DNA of 64,000 nucleotides from Candidatus Doudnabacteria bacterium (GTDB lineage: Bacteria > Patescibacteriota > Doudnabacteria > UBA920), in the NCBI GenBank assembly GCA_963768175.1, contig CAVYGQ010000001.1:638305-702304 (forward strand), read 5' to 3'. Both the position numbers and the translations under genes were made by a program. The notes under the pieces are model-generated. The model was not told where the DNA came from. It did no database searches and worked only from the letters and a program-made list of their open reading frames with translations. Numbering within the stretch: position 1 is the stretch's first letter; each line of letters begins with the position of its first letter. This document shows, in pieces, positions 16,096-33,455 of this stretch.

Positions 16096-16200
16096 GGGTC
16101 TGTAGCTCAGTTGGCCCCATCATTCGATGGGGCAGGTATCGCAGCGGCCTTTTAAGTTTACCCTATCGAATGATAGGGCCGTTTGATAAGGGTAATCCTT
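16096..16200 (+). other. Degenerate tRNA-Lys-like sequence with two hairpin insertions
   Basis: It starts gggtctgtagctcagttgg like the next copy and contains gcagcggccttttaag and gccgtttg. It is interrupted by ccccatcattcgatgggg and ccctatcgaatgataggg, which are mutually complementary. Confidence 0.3.
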
Positions 16201-16208
16201 AAGCCGGT

Positions 16209-16469
16209 ATGTTCTATATTTATATACTCCTACAAAATAACAACCTGCCATATACTGGTTTTACTGATAATTTAAAACGCAGATATAAACAACACACGGA
16301 CGGACTAGTAACATCAACAAAGCATAAAAGGCCATTAAAACTAATTCATTACGAAGCATATTTATTAAAAACAGATGCCGTGAGAAGAGAAAAATTTTTA
16401 AAAACCACCGAAGGAAAAAGGTTGTTAAAACAGCAAATTAGAGATATATTAATTAAGCTCAAAGTGTAA
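16209..16469 (+). CDS. GIY-YIG nuclease domain protein (homing-endonuclease-like)
   Basis: IYILLQNNNLPYTGFTDNLKRRYKQH is the GIY-YIG motif. 86 aa. Lies between tRNA-like sequences. Confidence 0.65.
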   Translation: MFYIYILLQNNNLPYTGFTDNLKRRYKQHTDGLVTSTKHKRPLKLIHYEAYLLKTDAVRREKFLKTTEGKRLLKQQIRDILIKLKV

Positions 16470-16481
16470 TTTAATCTTCGT

Positions 16482-16555
16482 GGGTCTGTAGCTCAGTTGG
16501 TAGAGCAGCGGCCTTTTAAGCCGTTTGTCGCGGGTTCGATCCCTACTCGCTACAT
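16482..16555 (+). pseudogene. Degenerate tRNA-Lys(UUU)-like copy: 5' two-thirds intact, T-stem and acceptor 3' strand do not pair
   Basis: GGGTCTG-TA-GCTC-AGTTGGTA-GAGC-A-GCGGC-CTTTTAA-GCCGT-TTGTC-GCGGG-TTCGATC, then CCTAC/TCGCTAC, which do not complement. Confidence 0.4.
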
Positions 16556-16584
16556 CTCGCCTTAAAAAAACTTAATAAATTTGA

Positions 16585-16660
16585 GGGACGGTAGCTCAGC
16601 TGGTAGAGCAGCGGCCTTTTAAGCCGTTTGTCCCGGGTTCGATCCCCGGCCGTCCCACCA
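16585..16660 (+). tRNA. tRNA-Lys (anticodon UUU), 76 nt with encoded CCA
   Basis: GGGACGG-TA-GCTC-AGCTGGTA-GAGC-A-GCGGC-CTTTTAA-GCCGT-TTGTC-CCGGG-TTCGATC-CCCGG-CCGTCCC-A-CCA. All stems pair. Confidence 0.85.
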
Positions 16661-16683
16661 AGTAAATTTTTCGGGAGTTACAC

Positions 16684-19949: not shown

Positions 19950-20141
19950 ATGGCCGAATATGAAGAATGGCTAAAGCAGCACCCGGATGCAGCCCCCTCT
20001 TCCGAGGTCGCCAGAAGCGTAATTGACGACGACATGGCCGAAGCCGAAGAGCACGAGCGCAAACGCGCCAACTGGAGCAGGGAGTATAATGCCAAGGAAA
20101 TCAGTCCCGCCTCCAAGCCTAAATTGGCAGAAAAAGAATAA
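19950..20141 (+). CDS. Hypothetical acidic small protein
   Basis: 63-aa ORF. Confidence 0.3.
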   Translation: MAEYEEWLKQHPDAAPSSEVARSVIDDDMAEAEEHERKRANWSREYNAKEISPASKPKLAEKE

Positions 20142-20354
20142 ATACAATGCCCGAAAACCAAAGGGATTACAACCACTTACTTGTGACCCAGGCCTCTGGA
20201 CAAGACCGTAAACAGAGAGTAAAATGGGCAGTTATAGCCATGGCTGTGATAGCCTGTGTTATAATTTGGCTATTAATACATACAGTAACTCGGACGTAAA
20301 TGTTTGTGTCCGGTTTGCTGTATGTAATCCCATTCATGTAGGAGGAAGTAGATA

Positions 20355-20780
20355 GTGGCAACTGTCGAACAAGGGCTTAGTGATGTAATCACTAAATCAG
20401 TTGATCTGGGCTTACTTAGCGAGCCCGGATACCGCGCAGGCGTGATTCAAGGAGTGTGCCGTGTACGGGCATTCCTGAATAGCTCGCAAGATCATGCGAG
20501 CCTGACCCAAGCGCAGATAACCGCCAATCTTAAGGCGGAGAAAAGGAGATTCAACGAGGAAGTGCGGCAAATGACGGCAAACGATTCCGCTCTGGAACGC
20601 GCTGCCAACCATCGGCCGAGAGTATCAAAAGCCGTACTGGAGCCGGACATGGACGCCAATGCAATCTCGGTTCCTGATGACTGGACGCCGCCGGAAAAGA
20701 TGCCGGAACACTTGCGACTGCACTCGAGACAGCCGCAGGCCATCCCGGCCTTCGCCGTCAACGCCCTCGCCTGTTGCTAA
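20355..20780 (+). CDS. Hypothetical protein, GC-rich
   Basis: 141-aa ORF. The region 20.3-21.2 kb is GC-rich with overlapping alternative-frame ORFs, so calls here are uncertain. Confidence 0.35.
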   Translation: MATVEQGLSDVITKSVDLGLLSEPGYRAGVIQGVCRVRAFLNSSQDHASLTQAQITANLKAEKRRFNEEVRQMTANDSALERAANHRPRVSKAVLEPDMDANAISVPDDWTPPEKMPEHLRLHSRQPQAIPAFAVNALACC

Positions 20781-21200
20781 AGGAGACCAGATGAGTAGCG
20801 TTCCCCACTTACCGGATGTATTCGAAATCAGAACGCAACAAGGTTGCATGGGGCAGAAAGACTCGCTCGATACGCCAGCGGAATCGGACGAGTCGTACGA
20901 AGCCTCCGAAGCCTTGCTCAACGCCGTGCGTGCGCAAGCCAGCATCGGCCAACCGTCAACAGTCAAGAACTAAAAAGGAGCAGACGGTGCAGATTAGCCC
21001 CGAAGTCCTAAAAGACCGTTTCAAGGTTCCGCCCTCAGTGCCGGACGACCACGTGGTTGTTCAAGACCGATCGCAGTCTGGCTGGAGGCTAATGGCTCCG
21101 ACACGCAATCCGGGCGCACAGCCGGTTGCCAAGCTCCCTCTCCACAGTGGCAGGTCGCCGATGTACGGCCACCATCTCCACTAATCTACAACACGCATCA

Positions 21201-21255
21201 CGCGCCACAACGCAAACAGCGCAGGACCTGGAGGTACCCTGCGCTGTTTAATTTG
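21201..21255. repeat. Left copy of a roughly 50-bp repeat that forms a stem-loop with a GGAGG loop; it brackets the DGR
   Basis: cgcgccacaacgcaaacagcgcagg-acctggaggtacc-ctgcgctgttt. Paired with the copy at 24650-24712, with compensatory stem changes. Confidence 0.55.
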
Positions 21256-21843
21256 ATGTAAAACTTTCCTTAATAGCGGTTTTTTGGTAAAATAAAGGTA
21301 CAATCTGCGCCTAAACCTTGAGAATATCCGGGCATGGCAAAGCTACTCCGGTAGCAAACCAATACAGGTAAAGAAACCCTCGTCAGGGTTCCTGTATTGG
21401 TCGTGCGGGGAAACTCGCGCGTTCGGCCCGAAAGGGTCGAGCTCCTGGCGGGGGCTTTTTTGTATCCAAAATTAATTATTAGAAGCTATGCCCAAATATA
21501 AAATCGACATCTGGTTTGATCAAAAACCCAAAAAAATACACTTAGGGTCTGTTGCTGTTGAGGCGAAAAATGAAGAAGAGGCCTATAAAATTGCATGCCT
21601 AAAAACTGAGCACTGGATGGTAGGGAAAGTAGAAAAAGATCAATAAAAATGGGCGAAAACTCGTTCCTTGACAAACCAATAAAACTTTGATATAATGTAA
21701 GGTCTCAAAAATAACGAGACTTGCGCTTTACAATCCTTCACTAATCAAAGGATAATAAAGTGCTTGTCTTGTTTTGAAAAAGATGAGACCGTGTCCTTGC
21801 GGCCCAAGGATGTCTTACAGAACCTACACAATTCGAAAGGAGG

Positions 21844-22710
21844 ATGCTGACGATGACTACCTCATCGCTCCCATCCGATCTCAATGTTCCGGCATCCCCG
21901 GAGCAAATTCGCGACGTCCGTAACACAACCGAGGTTGCGCTGGAAAAAGGGAAGTTTTTCAAACCCGAACTCCACGCAATCCATTCGCACGGCGATCTGT
22001 ACATCCCGGCCTATCAGGAATTCGCCCACGCTTTCGCTCTGCGAATGATGACTCCGACGTTCGACCTCGCTGGTGCGCTCACTCTGCTCGGCCAGACCAA
22101 TCTGGTGACGCACGAGCAGAATTCGGCCACCTTCAGCCAGCCGTCCCCCAAAGGACAGATTGTGGCTTGCCCGAACATGGCGCAGATTCAGGAGTGCGCT
22201 GGCCAGAACAAGGCCGGAAAGCACAAGTGGATCCTCGCCTATGGGTCGACCCAGTCGTTCCGCAGCCAGCATTCCACGCTCGGCACCGACACCAATCACA
22301 AGCCGAACTACTACCCCGGCGTCGACTGGTTCCTGAAGCCCAACTATAAGGAAGTGGGCGACAGCAAGCCGGAAGCCGGGTACTACCTGCTCGACATGAC
22401 CCCGCGGTGGAATCTCACCAACTGGCAACAGCAGGAGGACAACATCGCCGCATTGGGTGAAGACTACGAGCGCGCCGACGAGCGCGTGTTTGCCCAAGCG
22501 GTGCTGGCGCACCAGAAGACTACCGGCCAGCGGCTGTTTAACGACAAGTGGCACTGGGGTCGCATTCTCGACTCCCGCGGGTTTCGCGTCTGCGTCGAGC
22601 TCCACTCGGTTGGGCTCCTCGTCTTCGACGTTCCTCCGTCCTACGGCGACCGCGACCTCTTGTACGTCTGCGTTGCCCGGAAGTCCCGCGATCGTGCCTT
22701 GATAGCTTGA
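21844..22710 (+). CDS. DGR target protein (C-type-lectin/FGE-like C-terminus carrying the variable region)
   Basis: 288 aa, GC-rich. The C-terminal ...ILDSRGFRVCVELHSVGLLVFDVPPSYGDRDLLYVCVARK is encoded by the VR. TGA stop. Confidence 0.8.
   Translation: MLTMTTSSLPSDLNVPASPEQIRDVRNTTEVALEKGKFFKPELHAIHSHGDLYIPAYQEFAHAFALRMMTPTFDLAGALTLLGQTNLVTHEQNSATFSQPSPKGQIVACPNMAQIQECAGQNKAGKHKWILAYGSTQSFRSQHSTLGTDTNHKPNYYPGVDWFLKPNYKEVGDSKPEAGYYLLDMTPRWNLTNWQQQEDNIAALGEDYERADERVFAQAVLAHQKTTGQRLFNDKWHWGRILDSRGFRVCVELHSVGLLVFDVPPSYGDRDLLYVCVARKSRDRALIA
22565..22685 (+). repeat. DGR variable repeat (VR)
   Basis: 121 bp. It matches the reverse complement of 24185-24305 with 18 mismatches, and every mismatch falls on a TR adenine. 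Confidence 0.85.
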
Positions 22711-22749
22711 GGACTAGAGGCTCTTGTATTTTGAGCCTTGAACCCTTGA

Positions 22750-22781
22750 GGGGAGGCTTCACGTCCTACGTGAAGCCTCCC
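22750..22781 (+). promoter_or_regulatory. GC-rich hairpin downstream of the VR (DGR target-recognition-type stem-loop and terminator)
   Basis: ggggaggcttcacg-tccta-cgtgaagcctccc followed by a T-rich run. Confidence 0.5.
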
Positions 22782-22788
22782 GAAATTT

Positions 22789-23808
22789 TTATTTTTTCGG
22801 CATTTCACTTTGCAACCAAAACTCATTCTTTAAACTTTCTCCAAAATCATGGGCATTGCAATGAGATAGCACCCCTAAATACGATTGTAGAGATTGCTCA
22901 TTAATCCCTTTAGCTGATTTATTAAAAATTCTTTGCTTAGTTTTGTTCCTCAAAATCCTGAATTTGGGAAACTGAATATAGCCAAGAAAATCAACTCCCT
23001 GATGGTATTTTCGTAACGTTAGTTTATGAGGGTGGATATCAAGCTTGAGCCGCTCCCGTAAAAACAGCTTTATCCATTCTAACAAGGACAAAAGTTTTTC
23101 AGGCGAATCTGAAACCAGAACAAAATCATCGGTATAGCGAACATAAAAAGGGACTTTCAGTTTGTGTTTAACAAATCTGTCCAGTTCATTCAAATAAATA
23201 TTGGCAAAGACCTGGCTAGTCAGATTGCCTATGGGTACGCCATAAGGAAAACTGTCCACGACTTCACGGATTAGCCACATGGCATCGACATCTTTAATTT
23301 TTTGGCCAATAATAGAAATCAAAATATCATGATCAACCGAACGAAAAAACTGTCTAACATCACACTTAAGCACAAAGCAGGGCTTAGTATTATTTTTGCT
23401 GGCTTTACGCAATATGCTTTTAAGCGCTTCCACGCCCTTGTGCGTGCCTTTGCCCTTTTGACAGGAAAAAGAATTGGGAATAAAGGTCTCTTCAAAAATG
23501 GGATTCAAAACAGCAAAAATGGCATGATGGATAAGCCGGTCGCGCACTCTGGCTTTGTGGATGTTCCTTTGTTTGGGATCCTGGATAAAAAAGGAAGAAT
23601 AAGGCGCATGCTTGTATCTTTTTGACTTTAATTCGTCACGCAAATCAAAAATGTTCTGCTCCAATGAAAACTCAAAAGCCATTACATCGCTGCGTTTGGT
23701 CTTTCCCTTGCGAAATGCCTGCCAGGAGTTAAACAGATTTTCCGCACTGGTTATTTTGCTAAAAATATCTTTATAGATTTTCATATATGAACGAATTCGA
23801 TGTTCCAA
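22789..23808 (-). CDS. DGR-type reverse transcriptase
   Basis: RT motifs appear in order, including PIGNLTSQVFANIYLNELD and YVRYTDDFVLV (YxDD). The SQ in motif 4 is the DGR hallmark. 339 aa. An alternative start MKIYKD at 23784 would remove the overlap with the Avd-like gene. Confidence 0.85.
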   Translation of the reverse strand: MEHRIRSYMKIYKDIFSKITSAENLFNSWQAFRKGKTKRSDVMAFEFSLEQNIFDLRDELKSKRYKHAPYSSFFIQDPKQRNIHKARVRDRLIHHAIFAVLNPIFEETFIPNSFSCQKGKGTHKGVEALKSILRKASKNNTKPCFVLKCDVRQFFRSVDHDILISIIGQKIKDVDAMWLIREVVDSFPYGVPIGNLTSQVFANIYLNELDRFVKHKLKVPFYVRYTDDFVLVSDSPEKLLSLLEWIKLFLRERLKLDIHPHKLTLRKYHQGVDFLGYIQFPKFRILRNKTKQRIFNKSAKGINEQSLQSYLGVLSHCNAHDFGESLKNEFWLQSEMPKK

Positions 23809-24164
23809 TTTTTAAAAAGTCGTATGATTTATACAAAGAGTTTTATATTTGTTTAAAAACTTTCCCAAAGCAGGACAGATATTCTTTAGGCCAGAAAAGT
23901 GAAACTGTTTTAACGGAAATTTTAGAGTGCTTGCTGACAGCCACCGGCCTGCCCAAAGCGGAAAAGTTACCTTACTTGGATAAGGCCAGTGGCAAGCTCA
24001 ATATTTTACGGATTTATATGCGTCTGGCCAAAGACATTAAGGCTATGGATAACAAAAGATATATTTTCTTTCAGGACTCGGTAGACGAAATAGGCAGGAT
24101 GCTGGGCGGCTGGAAAAAATCTGTTCAGGTTTTACAACAACCAGACCTACCTCTTAAGAGGTAG
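23787..24164 (+). CDS. Avd-like accessory variability determinant (four-helix-bundle family)
   Basis: 125 aa, basic. FKKSYDLYKEFYICLKTFPKQDRYSLGQKSETVLTEILECLL. Sits next to the RT and TR but diverges from the RT. Confidence 0.65.
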   Translation: MNEFDVPIFKKSYDLYKEFYICLKTFPKQDRYSLGQKSETVLTEILECLLTATGLPKAEKLPYLDKASGKLNILRIYMRLAKDIKAMDNKRYIFFQDSVDEIGRMLGGWKKSVQVLQQPDLPLKR

Positions 24165-24184
24165 GTCTGGTAAAAAAACGATGA

Positions 24185-24305
24185 GACTTCCGGGCAACGC
24201 AGACGTACAAGTTGTCGTTGTCGCCGTAGGACGGATGATCGTTGTTGACGTTGAGCCCATCCGAGTTGAGCTTGACGCAGACGCGATACCCGTTGGAGTT
24301 GAGAA
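24185..24305 (-). repeat. DGR template repeat (TR)
   Basis: The minus-strand sequence equals the VR except at 18 of its 28 adenines, mostly in AAC codons (TR-frame LNSNGYRVCVKLNSDGLNVNNDHPSYGDNDNLYVCVARK). Confidence 0.85.
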
Positions 24306-24649
24306 ATTGCCTGTTTCCGTCCGTGATCACTGGAAAATGTAAGGCTTACTGCCTTTTGAGGGGCCTATACCCTTTCCTTTCCTGTATTTAACTTGGGAGT
24401 AGCCCCAACCTAACGCCGGGGCATCTCCGCTAGAAACAGACAAGAAGTATCACCGCAATCAATATTCGCACGCTACTGCATCCCGTAAGATGCAATACTC
24501 TGGCGCTCCAAAGATTGGAAACCCCGCGAGTTTGAACTGTAGCTCAAACTGCATGAGCAGGATTAAGCTTATTTTAAAAATTCTAGGGCAATCTGTCAAT
24601 TAGTAGCGGTTCTAAAAAATAACATTGGCCGCTGCATAACCTGAATCTG

Positions 24650-24712
24650 CAACGCGCATTTTGCGCACAATGCGAACAGCGCGGGACATGGAGGACCCCG
24701 CGCTGTTTTTAT
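24650..24712. repeat. Right copy of the DGR-bracketing stem-loop repeat
   Basis: gcgcacaatgcgaacagcgcggg-acatggaggaccc-cgcgctgttttt. Confidence 0.55.
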
Positions 24713-24749
24713 TATCATCCATAATCATTGCCTTTCCGCCGGTTTATTA

Positions 24750-25604
24750 ATGTTTTATCATTCACTAAAAAATAAAATGCAACAGCAACTTGAAAAGTTT
24801 GGAATATACTTATTAGTGCAAAGAGGCCTGCAACCCTATACTATATTTGGCTACCAAGGAGGTGTTAGTAGGTTTTTGCGGCAAGTGACAACAATCAATC
24901 CCAATGTCAGCCAAGTCGAGGGTTATATCGCCCAAATGAGGCAGCAGGGCAGTTCCTACAGTCATGTGGTTAACACTTCGCTGGCCATAGAACGATATAT
25001 GGATTTTCTTGGGACTCCTTTTAAATTAGGCCGCCCCAAAAAACCCAAGCGTACCATTAAAGAAACTCTCAGCGAGGCTGAAATAGCCCGTTTAATCGGA
25101 ATGTGCAAAAATATTCGGGAGCGGGCTATTTTAGTGGTATTGGCCTATTCCGGCATCAGGAACAAGGAGTTATGTAATTTGACTGTTTCTGATATTAATT
25201 TTTCTAACCAAAGCATTTATATCAAAGGGGGCAAAGGCAGTAAGGATAGAATTGCTTGCATCCCTCCGGAGTGCTTAGCTATCCTAATGGAATATTTACA
25301 GGCTTACCCAAGGGCACAGACTGATCGCTTATTTACCACGCTAGTAAAACAAAAATTTTATGCCGCTGGTGATTTAAGAAAACTGGTCAAGGTAGTGGCC
25401 AAACGTATGAATTTTAGCAAGCGGGTCTATCCTCACCTGTTTCGGCATTCTTTGGCCACTAATATGCTGGATTGGGGCGCTGCCATTCACTCCATCCAAC
25501 AGCAACTTGGCCATGCTTACATGGAAACTACCATGATCTATTTGCATCCGTCTTTGAGACGATTACGTAATGAGTATTTGTTTTATGTGCCAAATTATGT
25601 TTGA
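24750..25604 (+). CDS. Tyrosine recombinase/integrase (XerC/D-like)
   Basis: C-terminal catalytic region HLFRHSLATNMLDWGAAIHSIQQQLGHAYMETTMIYLH (R...H-x-x-R...Y). Confidence 0.85.
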   Translation: MFYHSLKNKMQQQLEKFGIYLLVQRGLQPYTIFGYQGGVSRFLRQVTTINPNVSQVEGYIAQMRQQGSSYSHVVNTSLAIERYMDFLGTPFKLGRPKKPKRTIKETLSEAEIARLIGMCKNIRERAILVVLAYSGIRNKELCNLTVSDINFSNQSIYIKGGKGSKDRIACIPPECLAILMEYLQAYPRAQTDRLFTTLVKQKFYAAGDLRKLVKVVAKRMNFSKRVYPHLFRHSLATNMLDWGAAIHSIQQQLGHAYMETTMIYLHPSLRRLRNEYLFYVPNYV

Positions 25605-25866
25605 AAGGGATATGAGTTAATCTATGACGCCTGCCTAATTCGGATTCGGATCGGGTGGGCGTTTCTTTATTACAGAATGGTTTTTATTGTGCCTAAATGG
25701 TAATATGAAAATAGGGCTTTACATAGTAAAAACCTAAACTTTGCTTTTTTCTTACCTTTTCTTTGATTTAATTTTACCTGCTCTTGATATAATTCTTACA
25801 GGCACGATTTTGAAGGATCTAAGGTCGAGGAATCCGAAACAAAAATATCTACTACAGGAGAACGAA

Positions 25867-25989
25867 ATGACAAGAGGCTTAGAGAAAATTTTAGAAGAAT
25901 TGCTAACTGAAAAATCTTCTAGAAACAAAGCTAAAATTCAGTTGCTGGCTACCAACCAAGAAGCTTTTTTGGCTTGGGAGTCAGTTTAG
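25867..25989 (+). CDS. Possible small ORF (40 aa) upstream of the histidine kinase
   Basis: AGGAG Shine-Dalgarno sequence 8 nt upstream. MTRGLEKILEELLTEKSSRNKAKIQLLATNQEAFLAWESV. Confidence 0.25.
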   Translation: MTRGLEKILEELLTEKSSRNKAKIQLLATNQEAFLAWESV

Positions 25990-26002
25990 TTTTTGCGCAA
26001 AA

Positions 26003-27448
26003 ATGGACGCTCATTTAAACAATTGGTTTGGGAGCAAACTAGCCCCCGTTTATAACCTCTTTAAAAAGAGCGTCCATTTTTTGTTTGTCAAATTACTTGA
26101 ACCCAAAACGCGACATGAAGATTCCAAGCGCAGGGAGTTTATTTTAAATATCATATTGTTTGGCTCTGTTGTTATGCTGTTTGTTCTGGATGCTTTTGTA
26201 CTTTATTACAGGTTAAAATTGGGAAACCAGGATAAAGGAATTTCTTTTAGCGCTTTCTCTTTGATTTTGCTGGGTTTTATTACGCTTTATGCTTTGTCCC
26301 GTTTCGGAAAATTTATATTGGCCGCTTATCTGTTTATCGCGGTTTATTTTTTAGCCAATAGCTATGCCGCATACCATTGGGGAGTTGACTTGCAGGCAGT
26401 GCTGCTTGGCTACGCTCTGCTGATTGTAATATCCAGCGTACTGATTAGTACTCTTTTTGGATTCTTGCTAACCACGTTAATTAGCGCATATTGTATTCCT
26501 TTATGGTATCTGCAAATTACCAGCCAGGTAACCGCTAGCTGGTATTGGAAGACTGACTTTAAATTTATTCAGGTGATAACGTTCTGTGTTATTTTTTTCG
26601 TCATCATGATTGTCTCCTGGCTTTCCAACCGGGAGATAGAAAAGTCATTACACCGGGCGCGAAAGTCCGAAGCCGAGTTAAAAAAAGAAAGGGATTTACT
26701 GGAAGTCAAAGTGGAAGAGCGCACGCAGGAGCTTAAAAAAACGCAGGCTGAAAAAATGTCACAGCTTTATCGTTTTTCGGAATTTGGCCGACTGTCTTCC
26801 GGAATATTTCACGATTTGATAAATCCTTTAACGGCACTGGCCATTAGCTTTAAACAATTGCAGGACACTAAAAATCAGGACCTGGAACAGGCTGAGCAGA
26901 ATCTCGAAAATGGTTTGGTAGCGGCCAGACGGATGGAAAGTTTTATCCAGACTATCCGAAAACAACTTTCCCACCAGGAAACCAAAGTTTCTTTTTCGCT
27001 GAATGAAGAAGCCCACGGTGTTGTGCAACTGTTTGAATATAAAGCCCGCCACGCCAAAGTCACCTTGCATTTTGTCCGCCAGCATGACGTCCAGACTTTT
27101 GGCGATCCGTTAAAATTCCATCAGATCGTGTCCAATCTGGTTTCCAACGGCATCGACGCTTATGACGGCATCCCGCCGGAAACAAACAAGGAACATGTGG
27201 TGGAAATTCGCCTTGCCCAGCATCGGGACATTGCGCGTTTGGAAGTCCAGGATCGGGACAGGGCATCAAGCCTGAAATTTTAGGGAAAATCTTTGACCCG
27301 TTCTTTACCACTAAAGATACAGAAAAAGGCACAGGCATCGGCCTTACCACCACAAAAAATATTACGGAAAAAGATTTTGCCGGAACCATTACTGTGGCGA
27401 GCAAGCCCGGCTATGGATCTACGTTCATTGTGGAATTCGTTGTATAAA
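26003..27448 (+). pseudogene. Sensor histidine kinase with an apparent single-base frameshift between the N-box and the G-boxes
   Basis: Six TM helices, H-box FHDLINPLTALAISFKQLQD, N-box LVSNGIDAY. The frame breaks at about 27245, and the +2 frame continues SGQGIKPEILGKIFDPFFTTKDTEKGTGIGL...IVEFVV to a stop at 27448. Confidence 0.65.
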
Positions 27449-32357: not shown

Positions 32358-33455
32358 ATGGATCCAATTCAGACACATCATTATTTCAGACAAATCAGCC
32401 AGGAATTTCTGGTGTATTGCCAGTTTGGAAAAGAAACGCCGGTCGCTAAAACAACCCTGATAGGCTACGGGCGCGGGATGAAGTTGATGAATAAAATATT
32501 TGGCGACAAGCCGATAGAAGAACTGGATAGCAACGATGTACTACTTTTGAGAAAATCCATTTTGGAACGCGGCTGTACTTTAAGCTATCTGCATAGAATC
32601 CTGAGCATGCTTCGCTCCGTCCTCCGCTATTGCCGCGAAGAAAGGGATATGGAAATATTGCCACCGGAAAAAATCAAACTGCCTAAAATAAAATGGCGGG
32701 ACGTGGAGTTCTACAGCGTCAGCCAGGTGGAAAAAATTATTTCCGAGATTCAGACCATGACGATCCACGGCATCCGTCTGATGGCGGTAGTGGCCGGTTT
32801 CCTGGACAGCGGCATGCGCATCTCGGAGCTTCTTTCCCTGGACCGCGCCAGCATAGATTACGGGGACGGCAGCGCTTACATAATTGGCAAAGGCGGCAAA
32901 CAAAGGAAAGTCTTTTTCAGATCATGGTCAATGGACTGGATGCAAAAATATCTGGCACAGCGAACTGACAATAATCCAGCGATGTTCGTGGTTCACCACG
33001 CAGGCTACGAGTTAGTCAGATTAAGGCCGGAAGACGTCCGGAAAATGCTGCGGAGGATATCCAAAACCGTGGGCTTTGGGATAAGACCGCATGCCTTAAG
33101 AAGAACTTTTGCCACCCTCCTGCACGGCAATGGCGTGGACATAAGGTTTCTACAAGCCCTGCTTGGCCATTCTTCGGTACAGGTAACGGAGCGTTACGTA
33201 GGCGTCGACCAAGTCATGCTTAAGGCAATGGTTAACACCAGAATGAACTACGGCCTGGCTGAAGCGGTCACATCCAACCTGGCAGCTATCCGCTGGGCCA
33301 AGGGATATGATCAGTGCATAGAGTGTGGACAAACCAGGCGGCCCCACCTTGCCAGAGGCTATTGCGACAGCTGCTACATGAACGCTAGGAACCATCAGGA
33401 GCTCAATAAACACGGGGTTTTGACGCTACAGGGAGTTGCGTTACAGCCAGCCTAA
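32358..33455 (+). CDS. Tyrosine integrase with a C-terminal zinc-ribbon extension
   Basis: HALRRTFATLLHGNGVDIRFLQALLGHSSVQVTERYVGV (R, H-x-x-R, Y). C-terminal CIECG...CDSCY. Confidence 0.85.
   Translation: MDPIQTHHYFRQISQEFLVYCQFGKETPVAKTTLIGYGRGMKLMNKIFGDKPIEELDSNDVLLLRKSILERGCTLSYLHRILSMLRSVLRYCREERDMEILPPEKIKLPKIKWRDVEFYSVSQVEKIISEIQTMTIHGIRLMAVVAGFLDSGMRISELLSLDRASIDYGDGSAYIIGKGGKQRKVFFRSWSMDWMQKYLAQRTDNNPAMFVVHHAGYELVRLRPEDVRKMLRRISKTVGFGIRPHALRRTFATLLHGNGVDIRFLQALLGHSSVQVTERYVGVDQVMLKAMVNTRMNYGLAEAVTSNLAAIRWAKGYDQCIECGQTRRPHLARGYCDSCYMNARNHQELNKHGVLTLQGVALQPA

What the first reader, a model, noticed from the sequence alone, without database searches (positions are those of the whole stretch)
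21844..24305. Complete diversity-generating retroelement with an unambiguous adenine-specific TR/VR relationship
Components:
- A 121-bp segment at the 3' end of CDS 21844..22710 (VR, 22565-22685) equals the reverse complement of 24185-24305 (TR), except at 18 positions.
- At all 18 positions the TR has A and the VR has C, G or T. The TR's other 10 adenines are conserved.
- In the TR frame most variable sites are AAC codons (LNSNGYRVCVKLNSDGLNVNNDHPSYGDNDNLYVCVARK).
- The VR encodes ILDSRGFRVCVELHSVGLLVFDVPPSYGDRDLLYVCVARK.
- The adjacent minus-strand gene is a 339-aa RT with IGNLTSQ (the DGR SQ motif 4) and YVRYTDDF.
- A 125-aa basic four-helix-bundle-like ORF (Avd-like) lies next to it.
- A GC hairpin follows the target gene at 22750-22781.

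The variable C-terminus with a GFR(V)C-type ending fits a CLec/FGE-fold ligand-binding domain. This is an active-looking hypervariation system carried on a mobile region of a CPR-like genome.
Basis: partly seen in the sequence, partly recalled or inferred. Interest (0 to 1): 0.9.

Follow-up and report, generated by a model that had tools for sequence, protein, structure and literature searches.

The report
Complete CPR-type diversity-generating retroelement
This is a genuine, intact and apparently active diversity-generating retroelement of the layout already known to be typical of ultra-small (CPR) bacteria. The less ordinary part is that its template RNA seems to carry the enzyme-docking and priming scaffold in front of the template instead of behind it.

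Summary
VR 22565-22685(+) and TR 24185-24305(-) differ at 18 of 121 positions. All 18 are TR adenines and all fall at codon positions 1 or 2 (P~1e-14).

The RT's best solved relative is the Bordetella phage DGR RT (175 bits, against 82 for group II and retron-type RTs). The 125-aa ORF passes NCBI's Avd model. The target has no Pfam or PDB sequence match, but its predicted structure hits FGE/C-type-lectin folds, including the DGR variable proteins TvpA, Mtd and TaqVP.

Across five related loci with near-identical TRs, 23 of 26 TR-adenine columns vary among VRs and 0 of 87 other columns do. The lineage therefore diversifies.

The layout TR-(avd)-RT is the published "B3" architecture, which accounts for 90% of CPR DGRs. 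As a DGR, this is a new member of a known kind.

Three further things turned up:
- About 260 nt of conserved, covarying RNA lies 5' of the TR. One of its strands pairs with both TR boundaries, which looks like a circular permutation of the BPP-1 DGR RNA.
- A conserved CTTGA pentamer array follows the VR.
- The target genes are unexplainedly G+C-rich.

The parts
21668..21696 (+). Promoter-like site for the target gene (TTGACA-17-TATAAT with an extended TG, 12 of 12 matches)
   Evidence: This is a consensus match only and has not been tested.
21844..22710 (+). Target (variable-protein) gene, 288 aa. It belongs to an orphan family with a predicted C-terminal CLec/FGE-like domain and has no signal peptide or transmembrane segment visible by eye.
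22565..22685 (+). Variable repeat (VR), encoding residues 241-281 of the target
22698..22749 (+). Array of CTTGA/YTTGR pentamers at about 8-nt spacing (exact copies at 22698, 22706, 22737 and 22745). It is specific to the VR flank; the first two copies encode the C-terminal LIA-stop.
   Evidence: It is the densest CTTGA cluster in the window. It is present in all 10 DGR-linked loci, and absent after the TR and after the DGR-less homologue in L004. Function untested.
22750..22781 (.). GC-rich hairpin (14 bp) flanked by T/A runs, lying between the convergent target and RT genes and 65 nt after the VR. It looks like a bidirectional terminator; a role in retrohoming is possible.
   Evidence: It is positionally conserved, with different stem sequences, in all relatives.
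22789..23784 (-). DGR reverse transcriptase, 331 aa from the ATG at 23784
   Evidence: RVT_1. Best PDB hit is bRT 8ub7 at 2e-50. It is 90-93% identical in six related loci.
23787..24164 (+). avd accessory gene, 125 aa, on the strand opposite to the TR and RT. Its start codon is 2 nt from the RT start codon.
   Evidence: NF033474 DivGenRetAVD at 88.4 bits (cut-off 80) and Pfam bAvd. The back-to-back arrangement is conserved.
24142..24169 (-). Stem-loop H14 (12-14 bp with a tetraloop), 7-16 nt 3' of the TR and overlapping the avd stop codon. It occupies the position of the BPP-1 Avd-binding stem-loop and looks like a terminator in the more distant relatives.
   Evidence: 8 of its 12 pairs show compensatory changes.
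24185..24305 (-). Template repeat (TR)
   Evidence: Mean pairwise identity across loci is 94%.
24178..24191 (-). TR 3' boundary strand (GGAAGUC|UCAUCGU) that pairs with the leader (helices H6 and H7). Its two adenines are never mutated in any VR.
24308..24318 (-). Segment immediately 5' of the TR (GGAAACAGGCA) that pairs with the leader (helix H8). It is the counterpart of the 'cPRT stop' strand a in BPP-1.
   Evidence: 11 pairs, 99% of cells paired, 5 pairs with compensatory change. Also.
24319..24428 (-). Leader 3' domain: stem-loop H9 (24428-24396), invariant A-rich single strand CCAAGUUAAAUAC (24395-24383), long stem-loop H10-H12 (24382-24332) and small hairpin H13 (24330-24319)
   Evidence: The order matches Sp 71-139 of BPP-1 as described in bioRxiv 10.1101/2023.10.23.563531.
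24432..24456 (-). Leader strand GCGGUGAUACUUCU-UGUCUGUUUCU. Its 5' half pairs across the TR 3' boundary (primer-like strand) and its 3' half pairs with the segment just 5' of the TR (stop strand b).
24468..24564 (-). Leader 5' domain (helices H1-H5). It has no described counterpart in BPP-1.
   Evidence: with compensatory changes in H1, H2, H3 and H5.
24571..24599 (-). Promoter-like site for the DGR RNA (TTGACA-17-TAAAAT). A TAnAAT box sits 6-8 nt before the start of conservation in the other loci.
   Evidence: Inferred; there are no transcript data.

Best explanation
**What is shown.** This is a complete diversity-generating retroelement of the CPR-typical 'B3' layout.
- The target gene is on the plus strand.
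- The RT gene converges on it from the minus strand.
- avd lies on the plus strand, back to back with the RT.
- The TR lies on the minus strand just beyond the 3' end of avd.

**What follows from established DGR biology.**
- An RNA carrying the TR is reverse-transcribed by the RT-Avd complex, which misreads template adenines.
- The cDNA replaces the VR.
- This rewrites about 23 codon positions in the last 41 residues of a CLec-like domain of the target protein.

**What is inferred from comparative RNA analysis here.**
- The DGR RNA is a transcript of about 440 nt that starts near 24565. It consists of a roughly 260-nt structured leader, the 121-nt TR and a 3' stem-loop.
- One leader strand (24456-24432) forms two adjacent duplexes. 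One spans the 3' boundary of the TR. The other pairs with the 11 nt immediately 5' of the TR. The TR is therefore looped out between them.
- This is the geometry of the BPP-1 template:primer and cPRT-stop duplexes. Here, however, the scaffold (the Sp equivalent) lies upstream of the TR, so the RNA is circularly permuted.
- Priming is predicted from a leader nucleotide near 24443-24442, with the first templated base just 5' of GGAA.
- cDNA synthesis is predicted to stop at the duplex at 24308-24318.

The ligand and the cellular role of the target protein are unknown.
For: **DGR identity**
- 18 of 18 TR/VR mismatches are at TR adenines and at codon positions 1 or 2.
- In four other loci the mismatches are also A-only: 15/15, 16/16, 14/14 and 13/13. 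In loci whose RTs are 54-86% identical the mismatches are A-only in L019 (15/15) and 91-96% at adenines in the others.
- The RT's best solved relative is bRT.
- Avd scores above the curated cut-off.
- TR-(avd)-RT is architecture B3, which makes up 90% of the CPR set (PMC5758913).

**Activity**
- Among five loci with near-identical TRs, 23 of 26 TR-A columns vary between VRs and 0 of 87 non-A columns do (Fisher 4e-21).

**Target fold**

**RNA**
- The leader has 85% mean pairwise identity, against 71-74% at third codon positions of RT and avd. It is alignable in DGRs whose RTs are only 60-69% identical.
- On 11 sequences, 94 pairs are 95% paired, against 34-50% when the partners are slid.
- 44 pairs carry compensatory changes, against 5-16 when slid. 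None of 500 shuffles reaches the observed values.
- L019 (RT 54% identical) was not used to derive the structure. It fits 75 of 87 pairs with 21 compensatory changes, and H6 is 7/7 paired.
- The single-sequence MFE of the full 443 nt gives the same long-range helices, z = -6.6.
- The two adenines inside the TR-leader duplex are never mutated in any VR.
- The element order matches Handa et al.'s description of Sp.
Against: - There are no read-level data, so current activity in this population is not shown.
- No transcript data exist. The start, the end and the unity of the proposed RNA are inferred from a consensus promoter and a hairpin.
- The sequences behind the covariation counts are related, and 7 of 11 are close relatives. 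The structure was derived from the same alignment, apart from the L019 check.
- Helix H7 (4 bp) is invariant and so uninformative.
- The parallel with BPP-1 rests on topology and element order, not on sequence homology of the RNAs.
- Handa et al. report putative stop duplexes between sequences upstream and downstream of the TR in many DGRs, CPR members among them. I could not see which ones.
Confidence: 0.85

Rival explanations
1. The DGR uses a conventional RNA. The conserved leader is only a 5' UTR, a stabilising or regulatory element, or a separate small RNA. The real priming and RT-binding scaffold lies 3' of the TR, in the antisense-avd stretch, as in BPP-1.
For: - In every characterised DGR the scaffold (Sp) is downstream of the TR.
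- Handa et al. report upstream/downstream stop duplexes in 207 of 278 Avd-containing DGRs, some from CPR.
- The TR and RT are on the same strand here, so a TR-antisense-avd-RT transcript is possible.
Against: - With 40 nt upstream and 110 nt downstream of the TR from 11 loci, RNAalifold finds no conserved upstream/downstream duplex. The best per-sequence duplexes land at inconsistent positions.
- Third-codon identity of avd (0.71) is no higher than that of RT (0.74), so the antisense-avd strand carries no extra constraint.
- The leader's two helices to the TR boundaries carry compensatory changes.
Confidence: 0.12
2. The element is a fossil or silenced DGR. The A-specific differences record past activity, and nothing is diversifying now.
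For: No read-level heterogeneity could be examined. The GGAAGTC end and the flanks show no IMH/IMH* differences inside the repeat.
Against: - All three ORFs are intact.
- RT and Avd are under purifying selection: 92-97% identity at codon positions 1 and 2, against 71-74% at position 3.
- There are no non-A differences in 93 positions.
- The closest relative (target 89% identical; L003) already has a differently mutated VR.
Confidence: 0.08
3. This is not a DGR at all. It is a chance or duplicated inverted repeat next to a group II intron or retron-type RT.
For: NCBIfam's best-scoring model for the RT is group_II_RT_mat (134.5 bits). That is far below its cut-off of 300, and the hits returned for the RT include no DGR RT model.
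Against: - P is about 1e-14 for the A-only pattern.
- The same pattern recurs in at least 10 independent loci.
- bRT is the best solved relative by 93 bits.
- Avd is present.
- Rfam finds no intron or retron RNA.
Confidence: 0.01

Closest known systems
CPR-set DGRs of cassette architecture B3, TR-(avd)-RT (Wu et al. 2018, NAR 46:11, PMC5758913; Paul et al. 2017 as cited there)
   Same: - The component order and orientations are the same, with avd on the reverse strand between the TR and the RT.
- The host group is CPR/Patescibacteria.
- The target lacks recognisable Pfam domains, as reported for most CPR targets.
- RT homologues at 54-69% identity are annotated from Parcubacteria, Patescibacteria, Minisyncoccia and others.
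   Different: Nothing in the architecture differs. I could not check whether this VR class is one of their 'UVR1-6' groups, because the supplements are not held. The structured 5' leader is not mentioned in the parts of that paper I could search.
Bordetella phage BPP-1 DGR (bRT-Avd-DGR RNA; PDB 8ub7 series; Handa et al., bioRxiv 10.1101/2023.10.23.563531)
   Same: - The RT is homologous over its full length (E 2e-50), including IGxLTSQ.
- There is an Avd and adenine-specific TR-to-VR transfer.
- There is a stem-loop directly 3' of the TR.
- One RNA strand makes two adjacent duplexes, one with the TR 3' end and one with the segment 5' of the TR. It is then followed by a stem-loop, A-rich unpaired bases and a long stem-loop.
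   Different: - In BPP-1 all genes are co-oriented (target-avd-TR-brt) and the scaffold (Sp) is 3' of the TR.
- Here avd is inverted and the scaffold is 5' of the TR, with an extra domain of about 100 nt (H1-H5).
- The hairpin after the VR is 65 nt away rather than adjacent. The gap holds a CTTGA pentamer array not described for BPP-1.
- The target is not a phage tail fibre.
CLec/FGE-fold ligand-binding domains, including the DGR variable proteins TvpA (2y3c), Mtd (1yu0) and TaqVP (5vf4), the Legionella Lcl C-terminal domain (8q4e, DUF1566) and the Bdellovibrio Bd2740 C-terminal domain (8oks)
   Different: - Sequence identity is only 8-14%.
- No hit to PF03781, PF07603 or any other Pfam model appears, even at E 10, in any of 27 members.
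- The profile search finds no PDB sequence match.
- Foldseek E-values are 0.03 or worse.
- The VR consensus (YRVCV...LYVCVARK) differs from the classic GFRC/YVRCVR endings.
Rfam RT-1 to RT-19 motifs (RNA structures next to bacterial RT genes; Weinberg et al. 2017, PMC5737381)
   Same: These too are structured non-coding RNAs next to an RT gene, and the authors suggest they may belong to retrons or DGRs.
   Different: None of them, nor any other Rfam 15 family, matches 24100-24620 even at E 10.

Membership tests
Diversity-generating retroelement (DGR) | A TR/VR repeat pair whose differences are essentially confined to TR adenines | tested here: met
   18 of 18 mismatches are at TR adenines, P about 1e-14. 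The same holds in relatives.
Diversity-generating retroelement (DGR) | RT of the DGR clade, with motif 4 [ILV]GxxxSQ and closer to bRT than to group II intron or retron RTs | tested here: met
   bRT 8ub7 scores 175 bits (E 2e-50), against 82 bits for group II and retron-type chains. IGNLTSQ aligns with IGSLTSQ. No formal phylogeny was built.
Diversity-generating retroelement (DGR) | VR lies in the 3' part of a protein-coding target gene, with variable sites at codon positions 1 and 2 (AAY codons in the TR) | tested here: met
   The VR encodes residues 241-281 of 288. All 18 sites are at codon positions 1 or 2.
Diversity-generating retroelement (DGR) | Accessory protein Avd (present in most DGRs, not all) | tested here: met
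   NF033474 at 88.4 bits (cut-off 80); PF22296 at 68.7 bits (cut-off 40).
Diversity-generating retroelement (DGR) | Ongoing diversification: VR variants differing only at TR-A positions | tested here: inconclusive
   Between related genomes, 23 of 26 A columns vary and 0 of 87 non-A columns do. Heterogeneity within one population needs reads, which these tools do not offer.
Diversity-generating retroelement (DGR) | IMH/IMH* asymmetry and a GC-rich inverted repeat directly downstream of the VR (as defined for BPP-1) | tested here: inconclusive
   The last 27 nt of VR and TR are identical and GC-rich, and the flanks then diverge at once. A GC hairpin exists but lies 65 nt downstream. The gap holds a conserved CTTGA array. 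No functional equivalence has been shown.
DGR cassette architecture B3 (Wu et al. 2018) | Core order TR-(avd)-RT with avd on the opposite strand | tested here: met
   On the minus strand the order is TR 24305-24185, avd antisense, then RT from 23784. The definition is in PMC5758913.
BPP-1-type DGR RNA (avd segment-TR-Sp) | Scaffold (Sp) located 3' of the TR, providing the primer strand and stop strand | tested here: not met
   There is no conserved upstream/downstream duplex and no extra constraint on the antisense-avd strand. The strands that pair with both TR boundaries lie 5' of the TR.
BPP-1-type DGR RNA (avd segment-TR-Sp) | Two adjacent duplexes that loop out the TR, plus a stem-loop just 3' of the TR | tested here: met
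   H6/H7 adjoin H8 on one leader strand. H14 lies 7-16 nt after the TR. Compensatory changes occur in H6, H8 and H14.
FGE-sulfatase (PF03781) / DUF1566 (PF07603) CLec target domains | Significant match to the family HMM | tested here: not met
   No Pfam hit at E 0.01 for the window protein. Neither PF03781 nor PF07603 is hit at E 10 in any of 27 family members; only chance-level matches (best E 0.065) to unrelated families appear. Ten distant members also lack both families.
C-type-lectin/FGE fold (structural class) | Fold-level similarity to solved CLec/FGE domains | tested here: met

The most novel reading that the evidence does not exclude
DGRs of the CPR-typical B3 architecture may use a circularly permuted DGR RNA.
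- The RT/Avd-docking scaffold, the primer strand and the stop strand (the equivalent of BPP-1 'Sp') lie in a roughly 260-nt leader 5' of the template.
- Only the Avd-type stem-loop remains 3' of the template.
- cDNA would then be primed from, and linked to, an upstream RNA segment.
- This would explain how avd can sit inverted between the TR and the RT.

As far as the searchable literature shows, this RNA is undescribed and is absent from Rfam 15.
Probability: 0.45. Interest if true: 0.65.

Novelty: new member of a known kind. Interest (0 to 1): 0.5.

Why it matters
As a DGR, this adds one more intact example to a class already known to be abundant in CPR bacteria, so on that count it is ordinary. 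Three by-products could matter to specialists.

1. **A structural model for the CPR DGR RNA.** The covariation-supported model covers the architecture that makes up about 90% of CPR DGRs. It gives concrete predictions for the primer strand, the stop duplex and the transcript ends. It suggests that the BPP-1 RNP geometry is kept through a circular permutation of the RNA. This is directly testable in vitro and is useful for engineering compact DGRs.

2. **A new target family.** The target defines a family with no Pfam coverage and a remote CLec-like fold (490 cluster representatives at 50% identity). It has no evident secretion signal, which raises the question of what an intracellular hypervariable binder does in an ultra-small symbiont.

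3. **A candidate recognition signal.** The VR-specific CTTGA array is a candidate target-recognition signal for retrohoming in this lineage.

Tried and rejected
- **Avd inversion as a novelty or a recombinase flip:** rejected. The layout is conserved in all 12 or more related loci and is the published B3 architecture.
- **Antisense-avd as the Sp equivalent:** rejected.
- **Rfam:** no family matches the leader, TR or hairpin at E up to 10.
- **Sequence-level assignment of the target:** nothing from Pfam or NCBIfam on the window protein, nor from Pfam on 27 members and 10 distant members, nor from a profile search against PDB.
- **Exact-protein look-up of the window target:** not on record.
- **Viral contig scans:** neither the leader pattern nor the RT found anything, so there is no sign that this lineage is phage-borne.
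- **Metagenome scan for the leader:** one locus only, L010, which is the same locus as the window from another sample.
- **Attachment sites for an integrated element:** only a 13-nt repeat (16667 and 33791), which is compatible with chance.
- **Hairpin pair at 21206 and 24666 as cassette boundaries:** not found around the DGR in other genomes.
- **AFDB fold search:** unavailable.
- **Literature gaps:** the supplements of Wu 2018 and Weinberg 2017, and the Paul 2017 paper, are not held.
- **Covariance model of the leader:** not built, because a model of about 270 nt would exceed the calibration limit.
Full report
**1. The observation**

The repeat finder returns a single inverted repeat in 20000-27000. 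Its arms are 22565-22685 and 24185-24305, 121 nt long and 85% complementary. I compared the plus-strand arm (VR) with the reverse complement of the other arm (TR).
- There are 18 mismatches. At every one the TR has A and the VR has C, G or T.
- The TR holds 28 A, so 10 are unchanged.
- All 18 sites are first or second codon positions of ORF 21844-22710.
- The chance that 18 mismatches all fall on the 28 A of 121 positions is about 1e-14.
- Similarity ends abruptly at both ends.

Scanning the whole window with the non-A positions of the TR finds only the VR and the TR itself, so there is one target.

**2. The components**

*RT.* It matches Pfam RVT_1. Among all PDB chains its best match is the Bordetella phage BPP-1 DGR RT (8ub7). 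That match covers 305 residues at E 2e-50 and 175 bits, with IGNLTSQ aligned to IGSLTSQ. Group II intron and 'retron-type' RT chains score 82 bits or less. Homologues are 331 aa and start at MKIYKD. The start is therefore the ATG at 23784, not the TTG at 23808.

*Avd.* The 125-aa ORF passes NCBI's curated Avd model (NF033474, 88.4 bits against a cut-off of 80) and Pfam bAvd.

*Target.* It has no Pfam, NCBIfam or PDB sequence relative, even when searched as a 27-member profile.
- An AlphaFold model built on the family alignment has pLDDT 83 and pTM 0.76.
- The solved DGR variable proteins TvpA (6.5), Mtd (5.1) and TaqVP (5.0), and the DUF1566-type Lcl domain (6.4), are all in the list.
- Foldseek gives the same kind of hits, but weakly.
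- The CLec/FGE reading is therefore supported at fold level only.
- A profile search of 1.84 billion cluster representatives finds 490 relatives at E up to 1e-3 and 143 at E up to 1e-30. Some carry long N-terminal extensions. Of the 10 distant members scanned, only one had a significant Pfam match (HEAT repeats in the N-terminal extension of P0147), and none was matched on the shared core domain.

**3. Relatives, activity and host**

Word-based homologue search, exact-contig look-ups and a genome scan gave loci with the same cassette.
- In six close loci the RT is 90-93% identical, Avd 96-99% and the target only 64-89%. The neighbouring genes are unrelated: S6-SSB-S18 and YchF; UvrC and UvrA; RuvB and a HEPN pair; and others.
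- In the four close loci where I scored it (L001, L002, L003, L005) every TR/VR mismatch is at a TR adenine: 15/15, 16/16, 14/14 and 13/13.
- Five more lineages, with RTs 54-86% identical, show A-only (L019, 15/15) or 91-96% A mismatches. Those with RTs 54-69% identical diversify homologues of the same target family.
- Among the five loci with near-identical TRs, 23 of 26 TR-A columns differ between VRs and none of 87 non-A columns does (Fisher 4e-21).

This is strong evidence that the lineage is mutagenically active on an evolutionary time scale. It is not read-level evidence for this population.

Records carrying homologues are titled Candidatus Saccharibacteria, Candidatus Doudnabacteria, Parcubacteria, Patescibacteria, Minisyncoccia, Jorgensenbacteria and Nealsonbacteria. 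The host is therefore a CPR bacterium.

**4. Architecture**

The TR and RT are on the minus strand, while avd lies between them on the plus strand. The avd and RT start codons are 0-2 nt apart in every locus. This looked odd at first. Wu et al. (NAR 2018, PMC5758913) define it as architecture B3, 'TR-(avd)-RT'. [quoted passage not shown] As a DGR, the element is therefore a typical member of a described class.

**5. A conserved structured RNA 5' of the TR**

The roughly 260 nt upstream of the TR on the minus strand (24306-24565) has no ORF. It starts 6-8 nt after a TAnAAT box; in the window the site is TTGACA-17-TAAAAT at 24599-24571.
- Its mean pairwise identity among close loci is 85%, against 71-74% at third codon positions of RT and avd.
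- It can be aligned in DGRs whose RTs are only 60-69% identical.

I joined the leader to the last 18 nt of the TR plus 62 nt downstream, for 11 loci. RNAalifold then predicts 94 pairs in 14 helices. On that alignment:

| Measure | Observed | Partners slid by 1-3 columns | 500 shuffles |
|---|---|---|---|
| Cells paired | 95% | 34-50% | none reaches observed |
| Pairs with changes on both sides | 44 | 5-16 | 18.7 +/- 2.8; none reaches observed |

Three helices matter most.
- **H6** (7 bp, 4 pairs with compensatory change) joins a leader strand to the sequence just 3' of the TR.
- **H7** (UUCU:GGAA, invariant) continues H6 into the last bases of the TR.
- **H8** (11 bp, 5 pairs with compensatory change, 99% paired) joins the next 11 leader bases to the 11 nt immediately 5' of the TR.

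Two checks support this structure.
- L019 (RT 54% identical) was not used to derive it. It fits 75 of 87 pairs with 21 compensatory changes, and H6 is 7/7 paired.
- Folding the whole 443-nt window RNA alone gives the same long-range helices, z = -6.6.

The two TR adenines inside H7 are among the only three TR adenines never mutated in any VR. That fits cDNA initiation just 5' of GGAA.

**6. Comparison with the BPP-1 RNP**

Handa et al. (bioRxiv 10.1101/2023.10.23.563531) describe the BPP-1 RNA elements in this order on Sp, the segment 3' of the TR:
- the Avd-binding stem-loop, directly after the TR;
- the primer strand, paired with the TR 3' end;
- two nucleotides later, the stop strand, paired with the segment 5' of the TR;
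- a short stem-loop, then unpaired adenosines;
- a single-stranded 'thumb ring' of about 13 nt;
- a long RT-binding stem-loop.

In the window the order is:
- [5' domain H1-H5];
- primer-like strand (24456-24443);
- stop strand (24442-24432);
- stem-loop H9;
- invariant A-rich 13-nt single strand (24395-24383);
- long stem-loop H10-H12, then H13;
- partner of the stop strand (24318-24308);
- TR;
- stem-loop H14 (24169-24142).

This is the BPP-1 order after circular permutation. The BPP-1 3' end is joined to its 5' end, and the RNA is opened between the Avd stem-loop and the primer strand.

I tested the conventional alternative. With 40 nt upstream and 110 nt downstream of the TR, no conserved upstream/downstream duplex appears. 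The antisense-avd strand shows no excess conservation.

Handa et al. examined only 40 nt upstream and 100 nt downstream of the TR in other DGRs, so they would not have seen this leader. Rfam 15, which includes the RT-1 to RT-19 motifs, has no match. No paper in the searchable library combines DGR terms with 'permuted'. Paul et al. 2017 and the relevant supplements are not held, so I cannot exclude prior description.

The mechanistic reading (priming from the leader, stop at H8) is inference by analogy, not demonstration.

**7. The VR flank**

It is followed by a T-run and sits between convergent genes. It therefore looks like a bidirectional terminator.

Between the VR and the hairpin, every DGR-linked locus has four to six CTTGA/YTTGR pentamers about 8 nt apart. 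In the window these are at 22698, 22706, 22737 and 22745, the densest such cluster in 64 kb. The first two encode the conserved C-terminal LIA-stop. The array is absent after the TR and after a DGR-less homologue. It is a candidate VR-specific recipient signal, but this is untested.

**8. Context and mobility**

The window is chromosomal. It carries topoisomerase I, DnaK/DnaJ, a MacB/HlyD transporter, a pilin-like gene and subtilases.

The DGR lies in a stretch that begins after tRNA-Lys (16585-16660). Two partial tRNA-Lys copies precede that gene. The stretch contains a phage-type AAA_24 ATPase, HU and a tyrosine recombinase next to the DGR RNA promoter. An integrated element is plausible, but I could not define its ends.

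Independently of that, the compact cassette of about 2.9 kb sits in different chromosomal places in different genomes. It has therefore moved as a unit.

**9. Verdict**

The finding is real and correctly interpreted. As a DGR it is a new member of a known kind (CPR B3-type), which on its own is of modest interest.

The comparative work adds:
- a well-supported structured leader RNA, with a specific and testable permuted-scaffold model;
- an orphan CLec-like target family;
- two unexplained regularities, namely the CTTGA array and the persistently G+C-rich target genes.

Confidence levels:
- that this is a bona fide DGR: about 0.97;
- that the leader is a structured part of the DGR RNA: about 0.8;
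- that it works as a permuted Sp with upstream priming: about 0.55.

Noticed in passing
window 21844-22710 versus 22789-24164; also L001, L002, L003, L005, L011, L017, L018 and L004: The target gene is far more G+C-rich (0.60; GC3 0.78) than its own RT and avd (0.38 and 0.39; GC3 0.41 and 0.45) and than the window as a whole (0.47). The same contrast holds in all eight related loci examined, including a homologue with no DGR beside it. No explanation found.
   Followed up: partly
window 21308-21439 (+); L011 517-634 and 3878-4007; L018 5899-6019; L001 19023-19140: There is a LOOT RNA (Rfam RF03000) hit above the gathering score about 400 nt upstream of the target gene, followed by a terminator-like hairpin. 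LOOT copies also lie near, and in L011 on both sides of, related DGRs. Each has its own TAAAAT-type box upstream. Whether the association is more than the general abundance of LOOT in CPR genomes is not known.
   Followed up: partly
window 21206-21250 and 24666-24710: Two copies of a terminator-like hairpin bracket the LOOT-DGR block. They share the loop ACNTGGAGG and differ by a compensatory stem change (CGCAGG/CCTGCG against CGCGGG/CCCGCG). The motif was not found around DGRs in other genomes, except in L010, which is the same locus from another sample.
   Followed up: partly
window 16141-16660: An intact tRNA-Lys(UUU) at 16585-16660 is preceded by a degenerate tRNA-Lys copy at about 16485-16558 and a further fragment near 16141. 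This pattern is typical of repeated integration at a tRNA gene.
   Followed up: partly
window 24750-25604 and 32358-33455: Two tyrosine recombinase genes are present. The first is XerA/integron-integrase-like and sits directly beside the DGR RNA promoter. A 13-nt repeat (TTTTTCGGGAGTT) occurs at 16667 and 33791 and could be an attachment-site pair or chance.
   Followed up: partly
window 19950-21200: A G+C-rich stretch (0.54) has long overlapping ORFs in several frames and on both strands and no Pfam match for the one tested (20355-20780). The coding assignment is unclear.
   Followed up: no
P0005 (homologue of the target; 2.4-kb Logan contig): Its VR is almost unmutated relative to the TR. 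Its C-terminus (…ARKSHCFLSNLPFKG) reads like a translation of the TR 3' flank and hairpin rather than the usual …SRDRALIA. This is probably an assembly chimera that joins VR and TR.
   Followed up: no
L004 7758-8576; L008 50-376; L009 10-504: These homologues of the target have no RT, avd or TR within the DNA fetched; L008 still has a VR-like end and L009 scattered YTTGR pentamers. They may be served in trans by a DGR elsewhere, or may have lost it. L004 also lacks the CTTGA array.
   Followed up: no
window 22060-24161 (cross-locus comparison): Identity at third codon positions between loci is lower for the target (0.60-0.64) than for RT and avd (0.71-0.74). This suggests partly separate histories, or different mutational regimes, for the target and the cassette.
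   Followed up: no
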